64,000 nucleotides of DNA from the human T2T-CHM13v2.0 reference genome, Homo sapiens. Made by a program: the position numbers and the translations under genes. Positions 25,661 through 64,000 of this stretch are shown here, in pieces. Location: NCBI RefSeq assembly GCF_009914755.1, contig NC_060947.1; one strand, given 5' to 3'. Below the pieces are notes generated by a model. The model saw only the letters and a list, made by a program, of their open reading frames with translations. It ran no database searches and had not been told where the DNA came from. Each line of letters starts with the position of its first letter. The first letter of the stretch is position 1.

Positions 25661-25948
<288 letters not shown>

Positions 25949-26237
25949 TCACCATTGTAGAAGCACAATCGTGAGGTAGCAGAAAGAGAGAACCATTCCA
26001 GGCTGGGGGAAGAGACAAGGTTACTTCACCAGGTATTGGGGGCTTTTCCCCACAAACCCCCAAAATCATCCAGATGAGTTTGTTGGAAGACAAAGAATAA
26101 ATCCCCCAGTTCTGCTGAGCTAGTTCAAACTAGGCATGTGAGCTATAGCCCAGAACTGAGGAGAAAGCTAGCAGCCATGCTAATCTTCCTGATGGGATCC
26201 TGAAAATTACCTTTTGAGGGAAATGATAGATTTACCT

Positions 26238-26935
26238 TGACAAAGACTCTTCTTGACCAAACTTTAGTTAGACTTCTCTGATGAGCCTTCTTTTCGACTA
26301 GACCTCCACCTTGGCTTCCTATGTCTGTCCTAGCAAGACCTCTTAGCAAGAATCCTGCTAAGTCAATACTGCCACCATTGATATCTGATCAATTTCCCTC
26401 ATCCCCCACCCTTCTTGTTTAAGTACATGAAGCTTTAGCAAGAAGCTCCCTACCCTTGATGTCTTCTTAAATATTCCATCCACTGACCCCCTCAATCTGC
26501 TCATTGGCTATAAATCTCCACCTGTCTTTGTTGTATTTGGAATTGAACTTGGCTCTTTCCTCTACTGTGGTAGTACTGAATAAAATCTGTCTTCATCGGC
26601 CGGGCGTGGTGGCTCATGCCTGTAATCCCAGCACTTTGGGAGGCCAAGGTGGGCGGATTACAAGGTCAGGAGTTCGAGACCAGCCTGGCGAATATGGTGA
26701 AACCTTGTCTCTACTAAAAATACAAAAATTAGCCGGGCGTGGTGGTGTGCGCCTGTAGTCCCAGCTACTTGGGAGGCTGAGGCAGGAGAATCACTTGAAC
26801 CCAAGAGGTGGAGGGTTGCAGTGAGCTGAGATTGTGCCACTGCACTCCAGCCTGGGCGACAGAGCGAGACTCCGTCAAAAAAAAAAATCTGTCTTCATCA
26901 TCTTTAACTAGTGTTGGACTCCATTTCTCTTCAAT
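26238..26935 (+). mobile_element. MER31-like ERV1 solo LTR with Alu inserted at 26598-26888
   Basis: Starts TGACAAAGACTCTTCTTGACCAAACTTTAG; AATAAA; Alu TSD AAAATCTGTCTTCATC. Confidence 0.7.
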
Positions 26936-26996
26936 GATCTCCAGAATATTTTCCTTCTATCTTCTAAAATTCTAGTTTATAGTACCATTGCAATAG

Positions 26997-27844
<848 letters not shown>

Positions 27845-27925
27845 TGAGGGCTGTTTCTAAACAAGCTTCTGTACAGAAGTGCTTACAGTCCTCTGAATGA
27901 ACAAGAACATTATCTATAAACTCAC

Positions 27926-28100
27926 ATAATTAGCTAGCTGGCGAATCCCATGAGGAAAGCGCTGAGGGTCTGCCTGAAGTCTGCCTTCTGAATCTCTTTG
28001 GGGAGCCATCCAACAGTCATCAATGCAGAGGTACTCATAACCTGCATCCTTCCAGCCTTCTGAGACCATGAGCTCTGCCATCTCCATGAAGAGCTTCTCA
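27926..28100 (-). CDS. GLA: GLA exon 2
   Basis: [30 protein letters not shown]...RQLANY; 175 nt. Confidence 0.98.
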
Positions 28101-28546
28101 CTGAAAGAGAAATTCCAATAATCATTACAATTCATTAAATGAACACTTAGGTACCTCCCATTTATTAGGCACCTTGGGATTTCACAATTTTTTCCAACCC
28201 AGTAATAGTGTGGTAGTAATCACAAGCAATGTAAGGTAAAATGAATTGTTTTTCCAGATTTTCTTTTGTCTCTCTTATCCCGTTAATATTCCCGCCCTAA
28301 AAACCCCAAACAAAATAGGAATGAGAAATATATGATGAAATTGAAAAGAGTATTAGATCTAAGAAGACAGTTCAGTAAAGTCAGAAACTACAAAGTTAAC
28401 ATAATCAACAGATATCAACAATAATCCTATTTGGAGAAAAAGATCCCATTCACAAGAACAACTGAACAACCTAAAATGCCTAGAGATAAATTTAAGATAC
28501 GTGCAAGGCCCATATGTTAAAACTATGATGCTCCTAAATGATTTGA

Positions 28547-30494
<1,948 letters not shown>

Positions 30495-31247
30495 TCATTT
30501 ATATAGAAAACAATTGTAAGGTTGTATATTAACATTTAAACCATGATTATTTCTGGGTGGTGGAACGGTGGGGGGAAATCTTTATTTTCATTTTGCTCTT
30601 CTTTATCTACATTTTTTGCAATGATCATGCATTAGTTTTATAATCAGATGCAAATACCAATAAAAAAAAATCCGTGATGGGCAAAATTGCCACACATACT
30701 GTACCACAGGGTCACATGAAACTTACAAGGCCAATTTCTTCTGTGATGTCTGACCAACATCCTGACTTTATCTATAAAGATATTCATAGGAATAACTTAT
30801 GGACACAGAAATGTACTGTGACTGCCACCTTTTACCAACATCTATCAGTGATTCCTAACCTTTTTTAAATCACAGAGCCCTTTGAGAATTTGAAGAAAGG
30901 TAAATATCCTCTCTCCAGAAAAATACACATATTCATTCAGATTTGTAGATTTACATTCATTTTCCCATTGAACATTTGCTCTGTAAGCGCAGTTGAATGG
31001 TCAAGCGCTGTGCTATGTACTTTAAATAGGTTATCTCCTTGAAAACTCACCTGTGTGAGATAAGAACTATTTTTCAGATTTTTTTTGTCAGCTCCCTGAA
31101 ATTAAAAGGTTGTAATCCCAATTTACAGATAAGGATTGTGAGGGTCAGATATGTTCAATACCTATCTAATCCAGCCTCAACCCTCACGCAAAGGTGTAAA
31201 TGTATAAAGTTCCTCCATGTCAACCTTCCAGCCTGATGCCACGCTCA

Positions 31248-32700
<1,453 letters not shown>

Positions 32701-38960: not shown

Positions 38961-39120
38961 CCAGCGGTTCTCAAACATTCATGTGCATCAGAATCATCTG
39001 CAGGGGTTGTTTAAACATTCATTTCTAGGCCCCATCCCTAGAGTTTCCAATTCAGTAGTTTTGGGATGTTGCTTGAGAATGTGCTGATGCTGCTGGTCTC
39101 AAGACCACGTTTTGAGACCC
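38961..39120. mobile_element. MER5-like hAT-Charlie MITE
   Basis: CAGCGGTTCTCAAAC...CATCAGAATCA...TTTGAGACC termini. Confidence 0.7.
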
Positions 39121-39790
39121 ATCACAGTTCCCCAAACAGCAACTTTAAGGAGCAGCTTCCTTTATGATCCCTGATTGCCTCCCCTTTGTTCCCATAACAA
39201 GTAGTTTAAATTTTCTGTTAAAGTCCAAACCACATATTTACAATACCTCGCACCTCTTAATGAGGATTTTGAGCTGCTGTGGCATTGTGTGCTGATATCT
39301 TAGATTTCTGTCTGGATCACAGTGGTCATTAACAATTCCACCCCTCAATAACTTTAAGGCCCTGATGTCCCTCTTATCAGTACCAACTGTACCGTGAACT
39401 ACAGATCTCTGTAGTTTCACTGACCCCTTGGGGACTGGATTGCTATACTTGGGCTGTTCAGGGCTTGGGGCCCAGAGAAATGAGATGGGAGGCAAATACC
39501 AAGTTGGTATTACCTGACTCCGTTTCATTCAGGAAATGAAAATCAATTCTAGAAAATCATTCAAGCTGAAGATGCAGTGAGACGTGATTGAGATTCTTTG
39601 ATGACTTCTAATTTTTATCACAGCTTTCAGGAGAGCAAGAAATCCATTTTGACTCCTATCATGTTGAGCCAGTCCTTGCCCTTCAGGAAGCCTTTCTCAG
39701 AGGGTAAACAAGTAGGTGTTTTTGCCTTCCCAGGCTACTTAGTTAATTTTCCAGAAGTTTCTCTAAGTCTGAGCAAAGATTCTCAAGTTA

Positions 39791-39806
39791 GCCACTAGAT
39801 GGCACC
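39791..39806 (+). promoter_or_regulatory. CTCF-like motif
   Basis: GCCACTAGATGGCACC matches the CTCF core consensus CCASYAGRKGGCRS closely. Confidence 0.65.
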
Positions 39807-40195
39807 AAATCCCAGGAGACAATAGAGGGTTCTTTGTGATCTTAGATGTTCACTTACTCTTCTTCGCTGGCTAAGAAGACTCAGAAGGGCTCTGGGGAGC
39901 AAAGGAGAGAGAACCTGGAGAAGGTCAGCGGTCAGCACTAGAGGTGTGCAAAGGGACAGCAGTACAGCTGGTGTGCACACGCGTGCACACCCACCACCAT
40001 TCGTGCTCCAACACTCACATCTAACACTACTACCCAGGAAAGTGATGGGAGGTCGAGTGGGCAGTCCACCCACAACACCCCCCAAACACTGAGTCAGAGG
40101 ATTTATTTTCAACTGCGTGTGTGAGCTATTTGGCAGGATCAGGCAGAAAATTTGCAGCCACAGTTATCGTGGTCTAAGTATCCGATGGCTTGTGC

Positions 40196-40695
40196 CAGTG
40201 GTTCTCTGGGTGTGGTACCTGATCAGTAACAGCATGAACCTCCACCTTGTGAGATATGCAGATTCTTTTTGCCCCCCCGCCCCCCGCCTCGTCCCTTTCC
40301 CCCAACGACTGAATCAGAAACTGGGTGTGGAGCCCAACAAGTTGTGTTTTGTTTTTTGTGTTTTTCTGAGACAGGGTCTCGCTCTTGCCCAGGCTGGAGT
40401 GCGGTGGTGCGATCTCAGCTCACTGCAGCCTTGAATTCCAGGCTCAAGTGATACTCCCACCTCAGCCTCTCGAGTAGCTGGGACTACAGGCGAGTGCCAC
40501 CAAGCCCAGTTATTTTTTAAAATGATTTTTATAGAGACGGGATCTCACTATGTTGCCTAGGCTGGTCTCGAACTCCTAGGCTCAAGAGATCCTCCTGCCT
40601 TGGCCTCTCAAAGTGCTGGGATTACAGGTGTGAACCTCTGTCCAGCCAATAAGCTGTGTTTTAACAAGTGCTCAGGGTGGTTCTGCTGCAGGAAA
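40196..40695. mobile_element. MER5-like MITE interrupted by a minus-strand AluJ (40345-40647)
   Basis: CAGTGGTTCTC...ACTGAATCAGAAACT...CTGTGTTTTAACAAG; embedded Alu. Confidence 0.7.
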
Positions 40696-41148
40696 CTACT
40701 GGCTGATGGATACATGGATTCCATTATCCACCCATTCATTGATTCCTGCATTCACTCATCCAACCCTAAAGGAGGTAACCAAAACAGAGACAATCCCATG
40801 TGTAAGCATGACATATCTTCTCTGCCTTCTCTACCCAGCAAAATGATACGAAAATGCATTGCGAATATGTTTATAAATCAAGCTCCTTTTCCATCAGGTA
40901 GAATTCCTAGTGCTGTCAGCTAAAATGAAGATTTCTCCAAGATGGGCCTCCAGGGCTATTGCAAAACAGCTGCTGATGGAAGGAAATTCCACTTGCTGTG
41001 CCTTATACCAGGCTGGGAGTGTCACAAGAACCCTTTACAAGCTGCTCCCACAATGACCAAAACTGTCTTCTCATGAGTGCAAAGCAGGCATGCCCAAGGG
41101 GCCCAGGTTAGCATGGTGCAGGACTCCGCTGGGAAGGTGAGGGGTTAT

Positions 41149-41643
41149 CGTCGCGGGGGAGTGTCGACTAACTGGGCTGGTGGTGCAGGGGTAAAATAAT
41201 TTACCAAGACAGTTGGAGGTAAAGGCAGATTTATTAGAGAAAGTAGGAAAATACGTTTCGAGAAGGCAACGGGCAGCCTGCAAGAGAGGAGCCGACTGAA
41301 AAGAAACAAAGGCTTGCTGGAGATTTTATAGGATGGTTTTTGGGCTGATTGAGAAAACCAAGGCAGTAGGGAGCTAGCTTGCATTCTTCTGTTAGCTGGG
41401 GTGTTTGATAAATTGAGGCGTTTGATAGTGAGCAGGAAGTTTGTGAGTTATGTATGTTATCTGCGCAAGAAGCCACATGTCCTGGGCCATAAAGAAAAGC
41501 AGACCTATAGCTTATCTGATTCCTCTTTTTGTTTATATGTTCTGGACCATGAAGAAAGACAAACTTATAGCTTATTTGCTTTCTCCCTTTGCCTTCCCCT
41601 GCTCCAGCCAGCCTAACTCCTTTTTTCTAATTAGGATTCCACA
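41149..41643 (-). mobile_element. ERV1-class solo LTR (MER83/84-like, subfamily uncertain)
   Basis: Minus strand starts TGTGGAATCCTAATTAG, has TATAAAA and AATAAA; flanked by GTTAT direct repeats (41144-41148, 41644-41648). Confidence 0.75.
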
Positions 41644-42139
41644 GTTATGTTGTCCCTGTGCCTGCAGCCTGTGAATGGACGCCCCACCACCTCCGTCACA
41701 GCAGTGGTCAGCACAGATAAATGCACACAACACACATCGATCTGGCCCTCTGAGAAGAGAATGTTAGGCTTCTGAAAGAAGAGATAAATAGTGAGAGATA
41801 ACATCTAAGAATCAAAATAATATATTCAGTAATTATTTTCTGAACCTATCCTAATGCTCTGACCGATACATTCTTTAGAACATCTACCCGTACATTCCAA
41901 GGACCCTTTTTCCACGGCCCTTTTTCTCCCTGTATCCCTCTTCCTGCTCCCCTTCTTTTGCACAGGGCATGTTTCACATATACAAGATGTTCTTACGTGT
42001 CATCCCACTTTAGAGATGAGGAAATTGAGTCTCAGGGAAGGCAAACATCAACTTTGTCTTGGGGAAAGGGCAGGAAGCTGGAAGGGAGGAGGAAATGAGC
42101 TCTGGCGAAGGAAAGAGGACATGGCTGGGATCCTTATGG

Positions 42140-42950
42140 GGTGGTGTACGAGTACCCGTGCCCCCCCCGATCTGTGGGCTGAGGGTGGCGGTGACTAGCG
42201 CTGGGACCAGCTCCTTCTCTCTCGCTCCCAAGCCCACAAGAATTCGGGGAGAAAGGGTGAGGTAGGGGGCTCCGGGAGAGCGGAGAGAGTTTGGAAAGAA
42301 TCCATCCCTCCTTCTCCCCGGCGGCTTTCTCGAGACCCTCACACAGCGCCCCGCCCCGCCCCAGTACATTTCCTTTCAGGGAAAGGGACAGGGAAGAGGC
42401 TGTCGGGAAATGGCGGCCGCGGCCGGGCTGGGGCTTCAGCGGGAGGCAGCAGAGGGGAAGTGGTCAGCGTGGCGAATGACGGAAGGTGGCGAGGGAGAGG
42501 AAGAGGGGTCGGGTGTCCGCGGAGCTCCAAGAGGGAAGACAATCGCTTTGCCAAACACGGCAGGGCATCTGGAAAGGCCTGGGAACCTCACCCGCCCTCC
42601 CAGGCCCTTCGGGCTCTTTTCGGTCCCATTAGGAGGAGGGGGAGGGCGGCAGGTGGGACCGGGCACAGGCCTAGTCGTGCGACAGGAGAAGGGAAGGAAG
42701 GGCCGGCCCCAGCTGGGTCCTCCTTGCGTCTGGCCTGTGCCGGACGCCCCCGACTCCGAGTGATCTCGGGCCGGTCCCCGGGGGAGTCCAGCTTCTCGCG
42801 CCAGGGGAGTTCTCAGCCCCAGGGCAGTCCAGGGATTAGGCGGAAGGGGGCACGCAGCCACCTGGCCGGGGCAGGGGGAGCTGCGAGGAGCCTTTTTTTT
42901 TTTTTTTTTTCCTGCGCAGAGCCCCTTGCGTGACACACAGTAGGCGCTCA
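42140..42950 (+). promoter_or_regulatory. ARMCX4: CpG island / promoter of ARMCX4 long upstream transcripts
   Basis: GC- and CpG-rich with GC boxes (CCCCGCCCCGCCCC 42348); gene name inferred from known gene order distal to HNRNPH2. Confidence 0.65.
42380..42485 (+). other. ARMCX4: Candidate first exon of ARMCX4 long transcript
   Basis: Donor GAAG|GTGGCG at 42485 inside the island; start approximate. Confidence 0.5.
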
Positions 42951-43024
42951 ATACATGTTTATTTTCAGTTGAGTGTTGCTTCAGCTTTTATGGCTTGTGA
43001 TAAATCCTTATCCTTCTGTTCTAG

Positions 43025-43115
43025 AAACTCGCATTGTCTACTGGATCAAGGACAGACAGCTCACCAACCGTGACAGCACCATACTGGAACTTCAAAAAGT
43101 TCTGAAAACATGTTG
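43025..43115 (+). other. ARMCX4: Candidate second exon of ARMCX4 long transcript
   Basis: Pyrimidine tract CCTTATCCTTCTGTTCTAG acceptor; donor TG|GTTCGT; non-repetitive sequence. Confidence 0.5.
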
Positions 43116-43704
43116 GTTCGTTTGTTGGAGTATTTTTCAACTTAAATTCCTTTTCCTTTTTTTTTTTTTTGCTCACTTTTTCCTCTGCAGAAAAACCTTA
43201 AAATGTTCTACCTTTTCCTTGAAACCTCCTCCCACTCCTTAGTTCACATTGACTTGTCTTTAAATGTTTTTGAGAAAATAATCAGAAATGCACAATTAGT
43301 GCTTGGTGGTTCTCAAATTATTTCACGCGTGGTAGTTTTGATTTTTGCTTTTCCAGTGAGGCTGTACCTTTCATCCTTAGGCAAATATGATGGCTTTCAA
43401 AAGCAGCTATGGGGTGGGAACTGGGAGTGGCTGCAAATGGGCATGGAGCGTCTTTTAGAGATAACGAAAATGTCCCAACTTAGATTGTGGTGATAGTTCG
43501 CACAACTCTATAAATTACTAAAAACTATTGAATTTGCACTTGAAAAGGGGGAGAACTTTATGAAATATAAATTATAACTCAAAGAAGCTCTTAAAATGCC
43601 TATGGAATAATAAGTAAAGAGTAGTGGGGATATGATCTATTTTGTGGGGAGACTAGCAGCAAAGTAAGACATAAAGATAAAGAAACATACACTGGCCTGA
43701 GGAA

Positions 43705-44110
43705 GTAACAAAGTCTCTTTGAGCAAACTTTGGACAGGCTCCTCTCAGCTTTCTTTTCAACTACACCTTGTCCTTGGGCCCTGTCCTCGGCCTGCCTAGC
43801 CCAGTTTTAGCAAGAGTCCTGCTGAGTAACTCCCTCACCCTTGATACCTGATCACCTTGTCCTGCCTTGAGCGAGAATCCTGTTTAGTCAGTTGAGCAAG
43901 AATCCCCCTACCCTTGATATCTCTCTCCCCTTAGGAATTTTCTTTCTACTGACTCCCTCACTCTGCTGCTTGACTGTAAATCCACACTTGTCCTAGTTGT
44001 CTTTGGATTGAGCTTAGTTCTATACTGAAGTCTCTTTTCCTCTATTATAATAGTACTCAAAATATGGCTTTACTGCTTTTGACTAGTATCTGGCTCTGTT
44101 TCCCATTGGC
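43705..44110 (+). mobile_element. MER31-like LTR
   Basis: Similar to the 26238 element (CAAACTTT..CAGGCTCCTCT, TTTAGCAAGA..CCTGCT). Confidence 0.65.
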
Positions 44111-44194
44111 GGAAGGCACTCTCAGACAGTGCTTCTAGTAGTATATATTAGCATGACCTGCCAGGGTACAATTCTTTTTAAAAAGACCACCAAT

Positions 44195-44556
<362 letters not shown>

Positions 44557-44955
44557 CTATTAAGTTCCTGTCCTCAAGGAGCTCATAGTACAGTGGGGAG
44601 CCAAGTAGCAAGCAAATAGCCATGCAAGTGTATAATTGCAATGAGGACAAGTATCATGAAAAGGAGGGTACATGGTGCAATGAGAGCCTATAAAATAGGG
44701 GTATTCGACTAGTCAAGGTGGTCAGGAATTGCTTCAAAGAAGCAGTTATTGAGCTGAGAGTTAAAGGAAGAATAGTGGCTAATTAGATTGGAGGTGAGAG
44801 TTGGAGGAGCTGGTTTGAGGCTATGTGTTCAGAGATGGCATGGTGAGTAAAAGAGACTGAATGAAAGTGGCTGGAGTTCAACAGGCAGTTGGGACAGCAG
44901 TGTGTTGGGTCAGGGCATGCAGGGCCTTACAAGCCATCTTAAGCCATTCAGTCTA

Positions 44956-45414
<459 letters not shown>

Positions 45415-45595: not shown

Positions 45596-47378
<1,783 letters not shown>

Positions 47379-58747: not shown

Positions 58748-64000
<5,253 letters not shown>

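What the first reader, a model, noticed from the sequence alone, without database searches (positions are those of the whole stretch)
39630..42890. Hidden decayed tandem duplicate of GLA exons 3-1 downstream of HNRNPH2
Seen: non-repeat sequence here matches GLA 25.7-32.0 kb in the same order and orientation. Anchors: TGTGAGCTAT 40120/26137; 40935-40968 vs 27093-27126, 31 of 34 identical, continuing CTGCTGATGGAA 40970/27439 across an Alu present only in GLA; exon-2 relic CCTGTGCCTGCAGCCTGTGA 41655 vs CCTGCATCCTTCCAGCCTTCTGA 28041, split by the 41149-41643 LTR; exon-1 relic AGCCCCAGGG 42815/31932, CGCAGCC 42853/31982, AGCTGC 42879/32011. The minus strand at 42800-42884 translates QLPLPRPGGCVPPSA*SLDCPGAE versus [32 protein letters not shown]. 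Exon-3 similarity (~39745-39835) is weaker. Inference: an unprocessed partial GLA pseudogene. A MIR looks shared (41998/31110) while MER31, MER5 and Alu insertions are copy-specific, suggesting an early-eutherian date. I know of no annotated GLA pseudogene here but cannot search.
Basis: partly seen in the sequence, partly recalled or inferred. Interest (0 to 1): 0.85.

Follow-up and report, generated by a model that had tools for sequence, protein, structure and literature searches.

The report
Decayed GLA intron-2/exon-2 copy beside HNRNPH2
Just downstream of HNRNPH2 lies a badly decayed, non-functional copy of part of the Fabry-disease gene GLA (a piece of intron 2 and most of exon 2), and the same GLA fragment recurs at several other places in the placental-mammal-specific Xq22 gene cluster, so it is a fossil of the duplications that built that cluster.

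Summary
Partly confirmed. Real: a 160-bp piece of GLA intron 2 (window 40846-41005 vs 27010-27126 + 27439-27475, 71%, E 1e-11), continuous across an Alu found only in GLA. It is not an interspersed repeat: whole-genome searches find it only on Xq22, while two control LTR-type repeats give 277-506 candidates genome-wide. Also real, at about 90% confidence: an exon-2 relic at 41650-41833 on the minus strand (61% over 130 bp). It sits at the expected spacing once a solo LTR (41150-41643) and a GLA Alu are removed (199 vs 194 bp), and it is the single top hit in three window-wide tests.

Not shown: exon 3 (below the null) and exon 1 (top-ranked tile but no outlier, GC-rich). No BGW motif and no HNRNPH2 relic follow.

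New context: at least six further Xq22 loci carry intron 2 and exon 2 contiguously, inside segmental-duplication units of at least 8 kb. A profile of these units matches GLA exon 2 at E 1e-12.

This is a decayed unprocessed GLA fragment, physical evidence for the published idea that the GLA-flanking region was duplicated when the eutherian Xq22 (BGW) cluster formed. Ordinary in kind, moderately interesting for its history.

The parts
40840..41030 (-). 'BC' element: relic of GLA intron 2 (counterpart 27004-27126 + 27439-27510, split in GLA by an Alu at 27127-27438)
   Evidence: blastn 71%, E 1e-11; raw score 60 after Alu excision. Genome search finds only 4 places, all Xq22. Alignment A1 covers 8 loci.
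41650..41833 (-). GLA exon-2 relic (about aa 66-113 of GLA) plus about 35 bp of the intron-1 side; its 3' end is cut by the LTR
   Evidence: 41699-41826 ~ 28011-28136, 79/130, E 6e-4. tblastn pieces aa 68-91 and 88-111. Top tile 27.5 vs 18.0 among 332 tile-strands. nhmmer profile E 0.016, next hit E 18. 15/58 residues identical in the GLA frame, last 10 missing.
41150..41643 (-). Solo LTR inserted into the relic (copy-specific)
   Evidence: 493 first-look candidates on many chromosomes; matches cover query positions 13-506 of 41138-41643. TATA-like and AATAAA signals read on the minus strand.
40342..40672 (.). Alu insertion specific to the candidate copy (absent from copy2 and from GLA at this point)
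   Evidence: About 75% matches to all GLA Alus. Copy2 alignment skips it.
40050..40180 (-). Weak relic of proximal GLA intron 2 (counterpart 26070-26199)
   Evidence: 40104-40160 ~ 26121-26177, score 18. Copy2 65793-65935 ~ 26070-26199. 4/300 and 8/300 shuffles reach these scores. GLA 26057-26106 is also matched by the unit profile.
39899..41135 (+). Segment duplicated again about 25.7 kb downstream (copy2, chrX 99885598-99886564, i.e. 65598-66564 in window numbering, outside the window), about 85% identical
   Evidence: Neither half is an interspersed repeat (only self and copy2 found).
41998..42035 (+). MIR-type core, collinear with one in GLA intron 1 (31111-31148) and one in locB
   Evidence: Score 20; three-way alignment. 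The family name is from recall. Common repeat, so weak evidence.
42780..42890 (-).
   Evidence: HSP score 15, E 4.7. Tile rank 1 of 332 but 17.0 vs 16.5. Frameshift-tolerant scan 60 vs 57/56/56. Post-hoc global z 3.5. CpG island: GC 0.62, o/e 0.60.
26057..28327 (-). Source interval in the living GLA gene (intron 2, exon 2 at 27926-28100, start of intron 1) that is represented in the Xq22 copies
   Evidence: nhmmer profile of 7 units: 27848-28327 E 1.2e-12; 26057-27088 E 4.4e-9. locB single gapped HSP 27010-28172.

Best explanation
Window 39.9-41.85 kb is a dead, unprocessed fragment of GLA: part of intron 2 followed by most of exon 2. It has the same orientation as GLA and lies 13.5-14.0 kb downstream of its counterpart, directly after HNRNPH2.

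Inferred origin: a genomic (DNA-level) duplication of the 5' part of GLA in an early placental ancestor. The copy then decayed neutrally and took up an Alu (40342-40672) and a solo LTR (41150-41643). The same GLA fragment was carried along in later segmental duplications that spread through Xq22. At least six units of 8 kb or more hold intron 2 and exon 2 contiguously, one further locus (locA) holds only the intron piece, and there is a young secondary copy about 25.7 kb downstream.

The relic has no coding function.

Shown: the homology, the collinearity and spacing, the copy-specific insertions, and the restriction of all copies to Xq22. Inferred: the date, the tandem mechanism, and any extension to exon 1 and the promoter.
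For: - **BC homology:** 71% over 124 bp plus 37 bp, E 1e-11, reading straight across the empty site of a GLA-only Alu.
- **BC is not a dispersed repeat:** genome searches give 4 places, and the locB relic gives 9 matches, all on chrX 99.86-102.0 Mb. The same tool gives 277, 506 and 493 first-look candidates on many chromosomes for three true repeats.
- **Exon 2 in the candidate:**
  - E 6e-4 against GLA, and 0.002 against the whole window.
  - Only 1 decoy HSP of 20 or more in 94 kb of strand space.
  - Tile score 27.5 vs 18.0.
  - Sole hit of a GLA + 6-unit profile when GLA is masked: E 0.016, next E 18.
  - Spacing from BC is 199 bp vs 194 bp after removing the LTR and the Alu.
- **Exon 2 in the Xq22 units:**
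  - In locB, BC and exon 2 form one gapped alignment to GLA 27010-28172 (E 4e-6 for the exon part).
  - The unit profile hits GLA 27848-28327 at E 1.2e-12.
  - In GLA's frame the units read 11-18 of 58 identical residues with 2-3 stops; their majority consensus reads 19 of 58.
- **BC tree:** GLA groups with cand and copy2 against the other units (support 0.99).
- **Order of HSPs:** 7 of the 12 +/+ HSPs of score 14 or more are collinear, including all four above the decoy maximum of 16. LIS P = 0.045.
- **Published model:** it already posits a duplication of the GLA-flanking BGW/HNRNPH2 region (PMC7586669 and PMC8290160, passages read).
Against: - Sequence between the anchors does not align better than shuffles (z 0.94 and 0.97).
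- Pfam found no melibiase match in any of 45 minus-strand ORFs.
- The unit profile without GLA does not hit the candidate's exon-2 relic at E up to 10. Candidate vs unit consensus is only 58/140 over the exon columns.
- The frameshift-tolerant peptide scan ranks the exon-2 site only 2nd-3rd in the window (49 vs 51 and 49).
- The exon relic is more diverged from GLA than the intron relic, the opposite of a simple neutral expectation.
- Exon 3 is not found and exon 1 is at noise level.
- There is no BGW motif in 39-45 kb and no HNRNPH2 relic downstream. A whole-block tandem copy is therefore not demonstrated.
- No other species could be examined.
Confidence: 0.85

Rival explanations
1. Full version of the reader's claim. 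One tandem duplication copied GLA exon 3 through exon 1 together with the bidirectional promoter. The ARMCX4 distal CpG island (42.0-43.0 kb) would then descend from the GLA/HNRNPH2 promoter, and 42800-42884 would be exon 1.
For: - The geometry fits a head-to-tail copy: offsets of 13.5-14.0 kb, the relic starts 1.65 kb after the HNRNPH2 3' end, and a plus-strand TSS (42393) and CpG island follow it (hub table; B5).
- The exon-1 tile and the exon-1 peptide both rank first in the window.
- The post-hoc global alignment has z 3.5.
- A collinear MIR core is present.
Against: - The exon-1 scores are not outliers (17.0 vs 16.5; 60 vs 57), and GC-rich tiles elsewhere score nearly the same.
- HSP E is 4.7.
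- No BGW motif or HNRNPH2-exon-1-like sequence is found in 39-45 kb, although the same search finds both at ARMCX1 and at the main ARMCX4 promoter.
- No HNRNPH2 relic is found downstream.
- Exon 3 is below the null.
Confidence: 0.3
2. Only the intron-2 element BC is homologous. The candidate's exon-2 similarity is chance, and the candidate is simply one more copy of an Xq22-specific low-copy element.
For: - BC is the only part shared between the candidate and the other units.
- The exon-2 HSP is 61% and partly A-rich.
- One decoy HSP reached 25.
- The peptide scan rank is 2-3.
- There is no Pfam hit.
Against: - The hit falls within 5 bp of the spacing predicted from BC after removing two independently identified insertions.
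- It is the single top hit in three window-wide tests.
- In six other loci BC is physically followed by an unambiguous exon-2 relic, which raises the prior.
Confidence: 0.1
3. The matches are chance plus shared interspersed repeats; there was no duplication of GLA at all.
For: - One strong non-collinear match (43708-44026 ~ 26240-26561) and the MIR core are indeed shared repeats.
- The inter-anchor DNA is unalignable.
Against: - BC has no dispersed family: 4 of 4 genome matches are on Xq22.
- The unit profile matches the GLA coding exon 2 at E 1.2e-12.
- Exon 2 is an old coding exon with a chr22 paralogue at 63%, not a repeat.
Confidence: 0.03

Closest known systems
Unprocessed (duplicated) pseudogene fragments left by segmental duplication
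   Same: Keeps intron sequence next to exon sequence in the parental order and orientation. Lies next to the parent gene. Disabled and truncated. Carries later transposon insertions.
   Different: Extremely decayed (50-71% identity). Only one exon is demonstrable. No annotated entry in the RefSeq table supplied. Belongs to a multi-copy family spread over about 2.2 Mb rather than being a single tandem copy.
BGW-cluster origin model (Winter & Ponting 2005, PMC1274310; Navas-Perez et al. 2020, PMC7586669): the BGW motif upstream of GLA/HNRNPH2 was duplicated to seed BEX/TCEAL/ARMCX genes
   Same: Same locus and same presumed epoch. Same idea that DNA flanking GLA was copied into the new eutherian Xq22 interval.
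   Different: The passages I read describe only the roughly 60-bp promoter motif (and HNRNPH2) as duplicated. Here the copied material is GLA intron 2 and exon 2, on the other side of the promoter, and none of the relic loci examined shows a BGW motif nearby. I saw only the passages returned by term searches; the PDF supplement (Fig. S6) could not be read.
Xq22 low-copy segmental duplications (the units of 8 kb or more at chrX 101.29-102.0 Mb, T2T coordinates)
   Same: The candidate shares the BC element and an exon-2 relic with them.
   Different: The candidate shares only about 180 bp directly with the units. Its BC groups with GLA rather than with the units. The units are 70-88% alike among themselves over kilobases.

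Membership tests
Unprocessed GLA pseudogene fragment | Significant similarity to parental exon sequence | tested here: met
   Exon 2: E 6e-4, tile 27.5 vs 18, profile E 0.016 as sole hit. In sister loci E 1.2e-12. Exon 1 inconclusive; exon 3 not met.
Unprocessed GLA pseudogene fragment | Intron sequence retained in parental order, orientation and spacing (i.e. not a retrocopy) | tested here: met
   Intron-2 element BC lies upstream of the exon-2 relic on the same strand. The gap is 199 vs 194 bp after removing the LTR and the Alu. The two are contiguous in locB.
Unprocessed GLA pseudogene fragment | Disabled reading frame or truncation | tested here: met
   The relic is cut by the LTR (last 10 of 58 codons missing). 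tblastn splits it into two pieces in different frames, so reading it through needs a frameshift or indel. No Pfam domain is detectable. Sister copies carry 2-3 stops.
Interspersed repeat (transposable-element) family | Many dispersed copies on many chromosomes | tested here: not met
   BC: 4 first-look candidates, all Xq22. 39899-40341: self and copy2 only. 41644-42900: self only. Positive controls gave 277, 506 and 493 candidates. The search only sees copies of roughly 70% identity or more, so a very old low-copy family is not excluded.
BGW-motif promoter paralogue | About 60-bp BGW motif with an internal E-box near the TSS | tested here: not met
   The HNRNPH2 (32306-32375) and ARMCX1 motif regions find each other and the main ARMCX4 promoter. 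Neither finds anything in 39000-45000, locA, locB or copy2.
Whole-block tandem duplicate (GLA 5' part + promoter + HNRNPH2) | Relic of HNRNPH2 downstream of the GLA relic | tested here: not met
   tblastn of HNRNPH2 (449 aa) vs 38301-74000: best E 2.2. The 4 DNA HSPs of score 20 or more lie in the repeat-rich 55-60 kb stretch (B1).

The most novel reading that the evidence does not exclude
The candidate is the founding tandem copy from which the whole placental-specific Xq22 (BGW) cluster grew. The first duplication would have run from GLA intron 2 through the bidirectional promoter. The ARMCX4 distal CpG-island promoter would be the decayed twin of the GLA/HNRNPH2 promoter. The unusually well-kept BC core (retained in 8 loci and better preserved than the coding exon beside it) would be a cis-regulatory element that was co-amplified with the cluster.
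Probability: 0.2. Interest if true: 0.65.

Novelty: new member of a known kind. Interest (0 to 1): 0.45.

Why it matters
Published work (Winter & Ponting 2005) reports that the 2.3-Mb Xq22 interval between GLA and GLRA4 has no counterpart in chicken or opossum, and that it holds the BEX, TCEAL, ARMCX and GASP genes. The published origin model infers a duplication of the GLA-flanking region from a roughly 60-bp promoter motif alone.

Recognisable pieces of GLA intron 2 and exon 2 lie right after HNRNPH2 and at several more sites up to 2.2 Mb away. They are direct physical fossils of those duplications. They show that GLA gene-body sequence on the far side of the promoter was also copied into the cluster, although no relic locus examined keeps the promoter motif beside it.

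With GLA as a natural outgroup, these relics give markers for ordering the duplication steps.

There is no sign of function and no obvious clinical consequence. At 50-71% identity the copies should not disturb GLA sequencing, mapping or recombination.

Tried and rejected
- **Pfam scan:** 45 stop-to-stop minus-strand ORFs of 39.2-43.0 kb gave no melibiase hit, only two irrelevant weak hits. I scanned only minus-strand ORFs, leaving out the plus-strand ORFs of the 107 listed and those lying in the Alu.
- **Genome search with the exon-2 peptide:** found only GLA and a chr22 paralogue.
- **Genome search with the GLA side of BC:** found only itself, a sensitivity limit.
- **tblastn of GLA against locA, locB and copy2:** nothing at E < 0.5, because stops break the relics.
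- **Global alignment of inter-anchor DNA:** z < 1. The first attempt, with free end gaps, was uninformative.
- **Exon 3:** A gapped 25779-25885 ~ 40009-40113 alignment was rejected as inconsistent with anchor A.
- **BGW motif:** absent from the candidate region.
- **Genome search with the HNRNPH2 promoter:** found only a chr6 copy of exon 1.
- **HNRNPH2 relic downstream:** none.
- **My first repeat mask:** it wrongly bridged two Alus over the GLA BC element. I checked and corrected this.
- **Other tools:** No cross-species sequence, Dfam/RepeatMasker, GENCODE pseudogene track or self-chain track was available.
- **Literature:** searches for a GLA pseudogene returned 1 paper, which was irrelevant. 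The search on Armcx, Armc10, retrotransposition, GLA and tandem duplication listed 4 papers. Passages from two of them, PMC7586669 and PMC8290160, were read and do not describe GLA relics. The other two were seen only as listings.
Full report
**1. Checking the observation**

TGTGAGCTAT, CTGCTGATGGAA, AGCCCCAGGG and CGCAGCC each occur exactly twice on the + strand, at the stated pairs. 40935-40968 vs 27093-27126 is 31 of 34. The quoted minus-strand translation of 42800-42884 is correct.

A sensitive blastn (word 7, +1/-1) of 38.5-44.5 kb against 21-34 kb gave the Alu-Alu matches plus these same-strand HSPs:
- 40104-40160 ~ 26121-26177 (40/58, E 0.24)
- 40846-40968 ~ 27010-27126 (88/124, E 1.2e-11)
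- 40970-41005 ~ 27439-27475 (E 0.012)
- 41699-41826 ~ 28011-28136 (79/130, E 6e-4)
- 42808-42835 ~ 31924-31952 (E 4.7)
- one strong out-of-order match, 43708-44026 ~ 26240-26561 (235/337)

Searching 39.0-43.5 kb against the whole window at E < 0.01, the only matches that are neither Alu nor low-complexity are the two GLA ones.

**2. Controls inside the window**

With Alus excised, the two intron pieces fuse into one HSP of raw score 60. I call this element 'BC'.

Twelve +/+ HSPs reach score 14. Seven of them are collinear, including all four above 16 (scores 18, 60, 24 and 20). Sixteen is the maximum seen in two reversed-sequence controls on both strands. A random order gives a run of 7 or more of 12 with P = 0.045.

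A larger decoy (the whole masked window reversed, 47,226 bp, both strands, against 4,798 bp of GLA) gave one HSP of 20 or more, five of 19 and sixteen of 18. The exon-2 HSP (24) is therefore rare and the TGTGAGCTAT HSP (18) is not.

In real sequence outside GLA, nine HSPs reach 20. Four of them lie in 39-44 kb on the + strand.

Against the claim, the DNA between anchors aligns no better than shuffles (z 0.94, 115/500; z 0.97, 102/500). Pfam found no melibiase domain in 45 minus-strand ORFs.

**3. Repeat or duplication?**

The whole T2T genome turned out to be searchable.

BC finds four places only, all on chrX 99.86-101.97 Mb:
- itself
- 'copy2' at 99886113-99886564 (84%)
- 'locA' at 101632270-348 (minus strand)
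- 'locB' at 101970814-876

The flank 39899-40341 finds only itself and copy2. 41644-42900 and 42907-43279 find only themselves.

The same tool gives 277 and 506 first-look candidates on many chromosomes for the out-of-order element, and 493 for 41138-41643. Those are true interspersed LTR-type repeats.

The tool cannot see copies below roughly 70% identity. The GLA side of BC finds only itself.

**4. The exon-2 relic**

After removing the LTR (41150-41643) and the GLA Alu (27534-27874), BC and the exon-2 HSP are 199 bp apart in the candidate and 194 bp apart in GLA.

tblastn gives two consecutive pieces on the minus strand: aa 68-91 ~ 41783-41712 and aa 88-111 ~ 41721-41650 (each E about 4).

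Window-wide rank tests:
- The exon-2 zone scores 27.5 on the tile at 41601+, against 18.0 for the best unrelated tile of 332 tile-strands.
- A frameshift-tolerant peptide scan places the site only 2nd-3rd (49 vs 51 and 49).

**5. Sister copies settle the homology**

In locB, GLA 27952-28172 aligns at 60% over 225 bp (E 4e-6), 114 bp after locB's BC; the corresponding GLA gap is 135 bp. With Alus excised, the whole stretch GLA 27010-28172 is one gapped HSP.

Its minus strand reads KEMGFEDLGLDGC*...GDPQHF against [17 protein letters not shown]...ADPQRF, in a single frame.

Searching the genome with this 601-bp relic gives 9 matches, all on chrX:
- 102000853 (88%)
- 101853042 and 101290648 (79%, full length)
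- 101897391 and 101329140 (partial)
- a second short piece at 101329567
- locA
- the candidate
- locB itself

These copies lie in segmental-duplication units of at least 8 kb that are 70-77% alike.

A profile of seven units hits the following in the window:
- GLA 27848-28327 at E 1.2e-12
- GLA 26057-27088 at E 4.4e-9
- the candidate BC at E 1.1e-17
- the GLA intron-1 MIR at E 0.09

It does not hit the candidate's exon-2 relic.

A profile of GLA plus six units for the exon-2 zone, run on the window with GLA masked, has one hit: 41699-41833 at E 0.016, with the next at E 18.

In GLA's frame the six units read 11-18 of 58 identical residues with 2-3 stops, and their majority consensus reads 19 of 58. 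The candidate reads 15 of 58, with the last 10 codons lost to the LTR.

On BC, GLA groups with the candidate and copy2 against the other units (support 0.99). Alignment A1 shows that GLA's two halves abut exactly where the other eight rows are continuous.

**6. What is not shown**

- **Exon 3.** A gapped alternative at 40009-40113 conflicts with anchor A.
- **Exon 1.** Its tile and its peptide rank first in the window, but by 17.0 vs 16.5 and 60 vs 57. GC-rich tiles elsewhere score nearly the same.
- **Promoter.** The region 42.0-43.0 kb is a CpG island (GC 0.62, o/e 0.60). The BGW motif is readily found between HNRNPH2 (32306-32375), ARMCX1 and the main ARMCX4 promoter, but it is absent from 39-45 kb and from locA, locB and copy2.
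- **HNRNPH2 relic.** None follows the candidate (best tblastn E 2.2).
- **Anchor A.** It gets modest support, because copy2 aligns to the same GLA stretch (26070-26199; 4/300 and 8/300 shuffles). The unit profile also matches GLA 26057-26106.

**7. Explanation**

The best-supported reading is a DNA-level duplication of the 5' part of GLA, covering at least intron 2 from about 26.07 kb through exon 2. It lies in GLA's orientation immediately after HNRNPH2.

It decayed neutrally (JC d about 0.37 for BC) and was later interrupted by an Alu and a solo LTR.

The left part (39899-41135) was copied again to 65598-66564 (85%). That homology stops 15 bp before the LTR.

The same fragment travelled with larger units through the BEX/TCEAL side of Xq22.

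The date (early placental) and the tandem mechanism are inferred from divergence, from geometry (offsets of 13.5-14.0 kb) and from the literature. Winter & Ponting report that the GLA-GLRA4 interval is under 4 kb in chicken and 10 kb in opossum (PMC1274310, passages read). Navas-Perez et al. propose that the region carrying the BGW motif next to GLA and HNRNPH2 was duplicated (PMC7586669 and PMC8290160, passages read).

One oddity remains. The exon relics are more diverged from GLA than BC is, in the candidate and in the units alike. Either BC is under constraint or the exon copies decayed unusually fast.

**8. Novelty**

In the passages I read, neither paper mentions GLA intron or exon relics. 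The PDF supplement with Fig. S6 could not be read.

A full-text search for a GLA pseudogene under four phrasings returned one irrelevant paper. The RefSeq table supplied lists no pseudogene here.

I could not consult the GENCODE pseudogene track, the self-chain track or Dfam.

The object is an ordinary kind of thing, a decayed unprocessed pseudogene fragment. Its value is as a fossil of how the Xq22 cluster began.

Noticed in passing
window 39899-41135 vs chrX 99885598-99886564 (L005:1598-2564): A secondary copy ('copy2') about 25.7 kb downstream, inside an ARMCX4 intron, is about 85% identical to the left part of the relic. The homology ends at 41135, 15 bp before the solo LTR, so the LTR edge may mark a duplication or deletion breakpoint.
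   Followed up: partly
window 42907-43279 vs L005:6037-6406: A 392-bp match at only 61% identity (E 9e-17) covers the ARMCX4 alternative exon 43025-43115. It is collinear with the 85% match but far more diverged, which suggests an older paralogy of the two blocks, or gene conversion on the left part only.
   Followed up: partly
window 43708-44026 and 26240-26561 (continuing 26891-26962); L005:4400-4831: Three copies of one LTR-type interspersed repeat, all in + orientation near the GLA-derived pieces, but in a different order in GLA (before BC) than in the candidate and copy2 (after BC). The family is genome-wide (277-506 candidates), so this is probably coincidence.
   Followed up: partly
L008:7180-7275 (chrX 101968180-101968275) vs window 26991-27086: The Xq22 units hold a second partial copy of the left part of BC, about 2.5 kb upstream of the main one. 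The two are separated by a stretch that matches window 58921-60565 at E 1e-134, presumably an L1-type insertion.
   Followed up: partly
window 32404-32451 vs L012:7236-7280 and L013:5254-5304: The 3' end of HNRNPH2 exon 1 plus its splice donor is conserved with ARMCX4 (78%, E 4e-5) and ARMCX1. It lies beside the BGW motif (32306-32375 ~ L013:5122-5192, E 2.7e-4). This agrees with the published 5'-UTR homology.
   Followed up: partly
L011 (chr6 160959678-160959768, minus strand): A 79% match to HNRNPH2 exon 1 (window 32325-32421) is the only other genomic hit of the promoter/exon-1 query. It is probably a processed copy that includes the 5' UTR exon.
   Followed up: no
window 42911-42970: A poly-T run is followed by sequence that I recognise from memory as the 3' end of a MIR element. 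It sits between the putative exon-1 relic and ARMCX4 exon 43025-43115.
   Followed up: no
window 45600-45937 vs L006:4472-4781 and L005:3318-3638 (minus): Another roughly 340-bp element at 66-67% identity is shared between the window, locA and the copy2 block. Whether it is a dispersed repeat was not tested.
   Followed up: no
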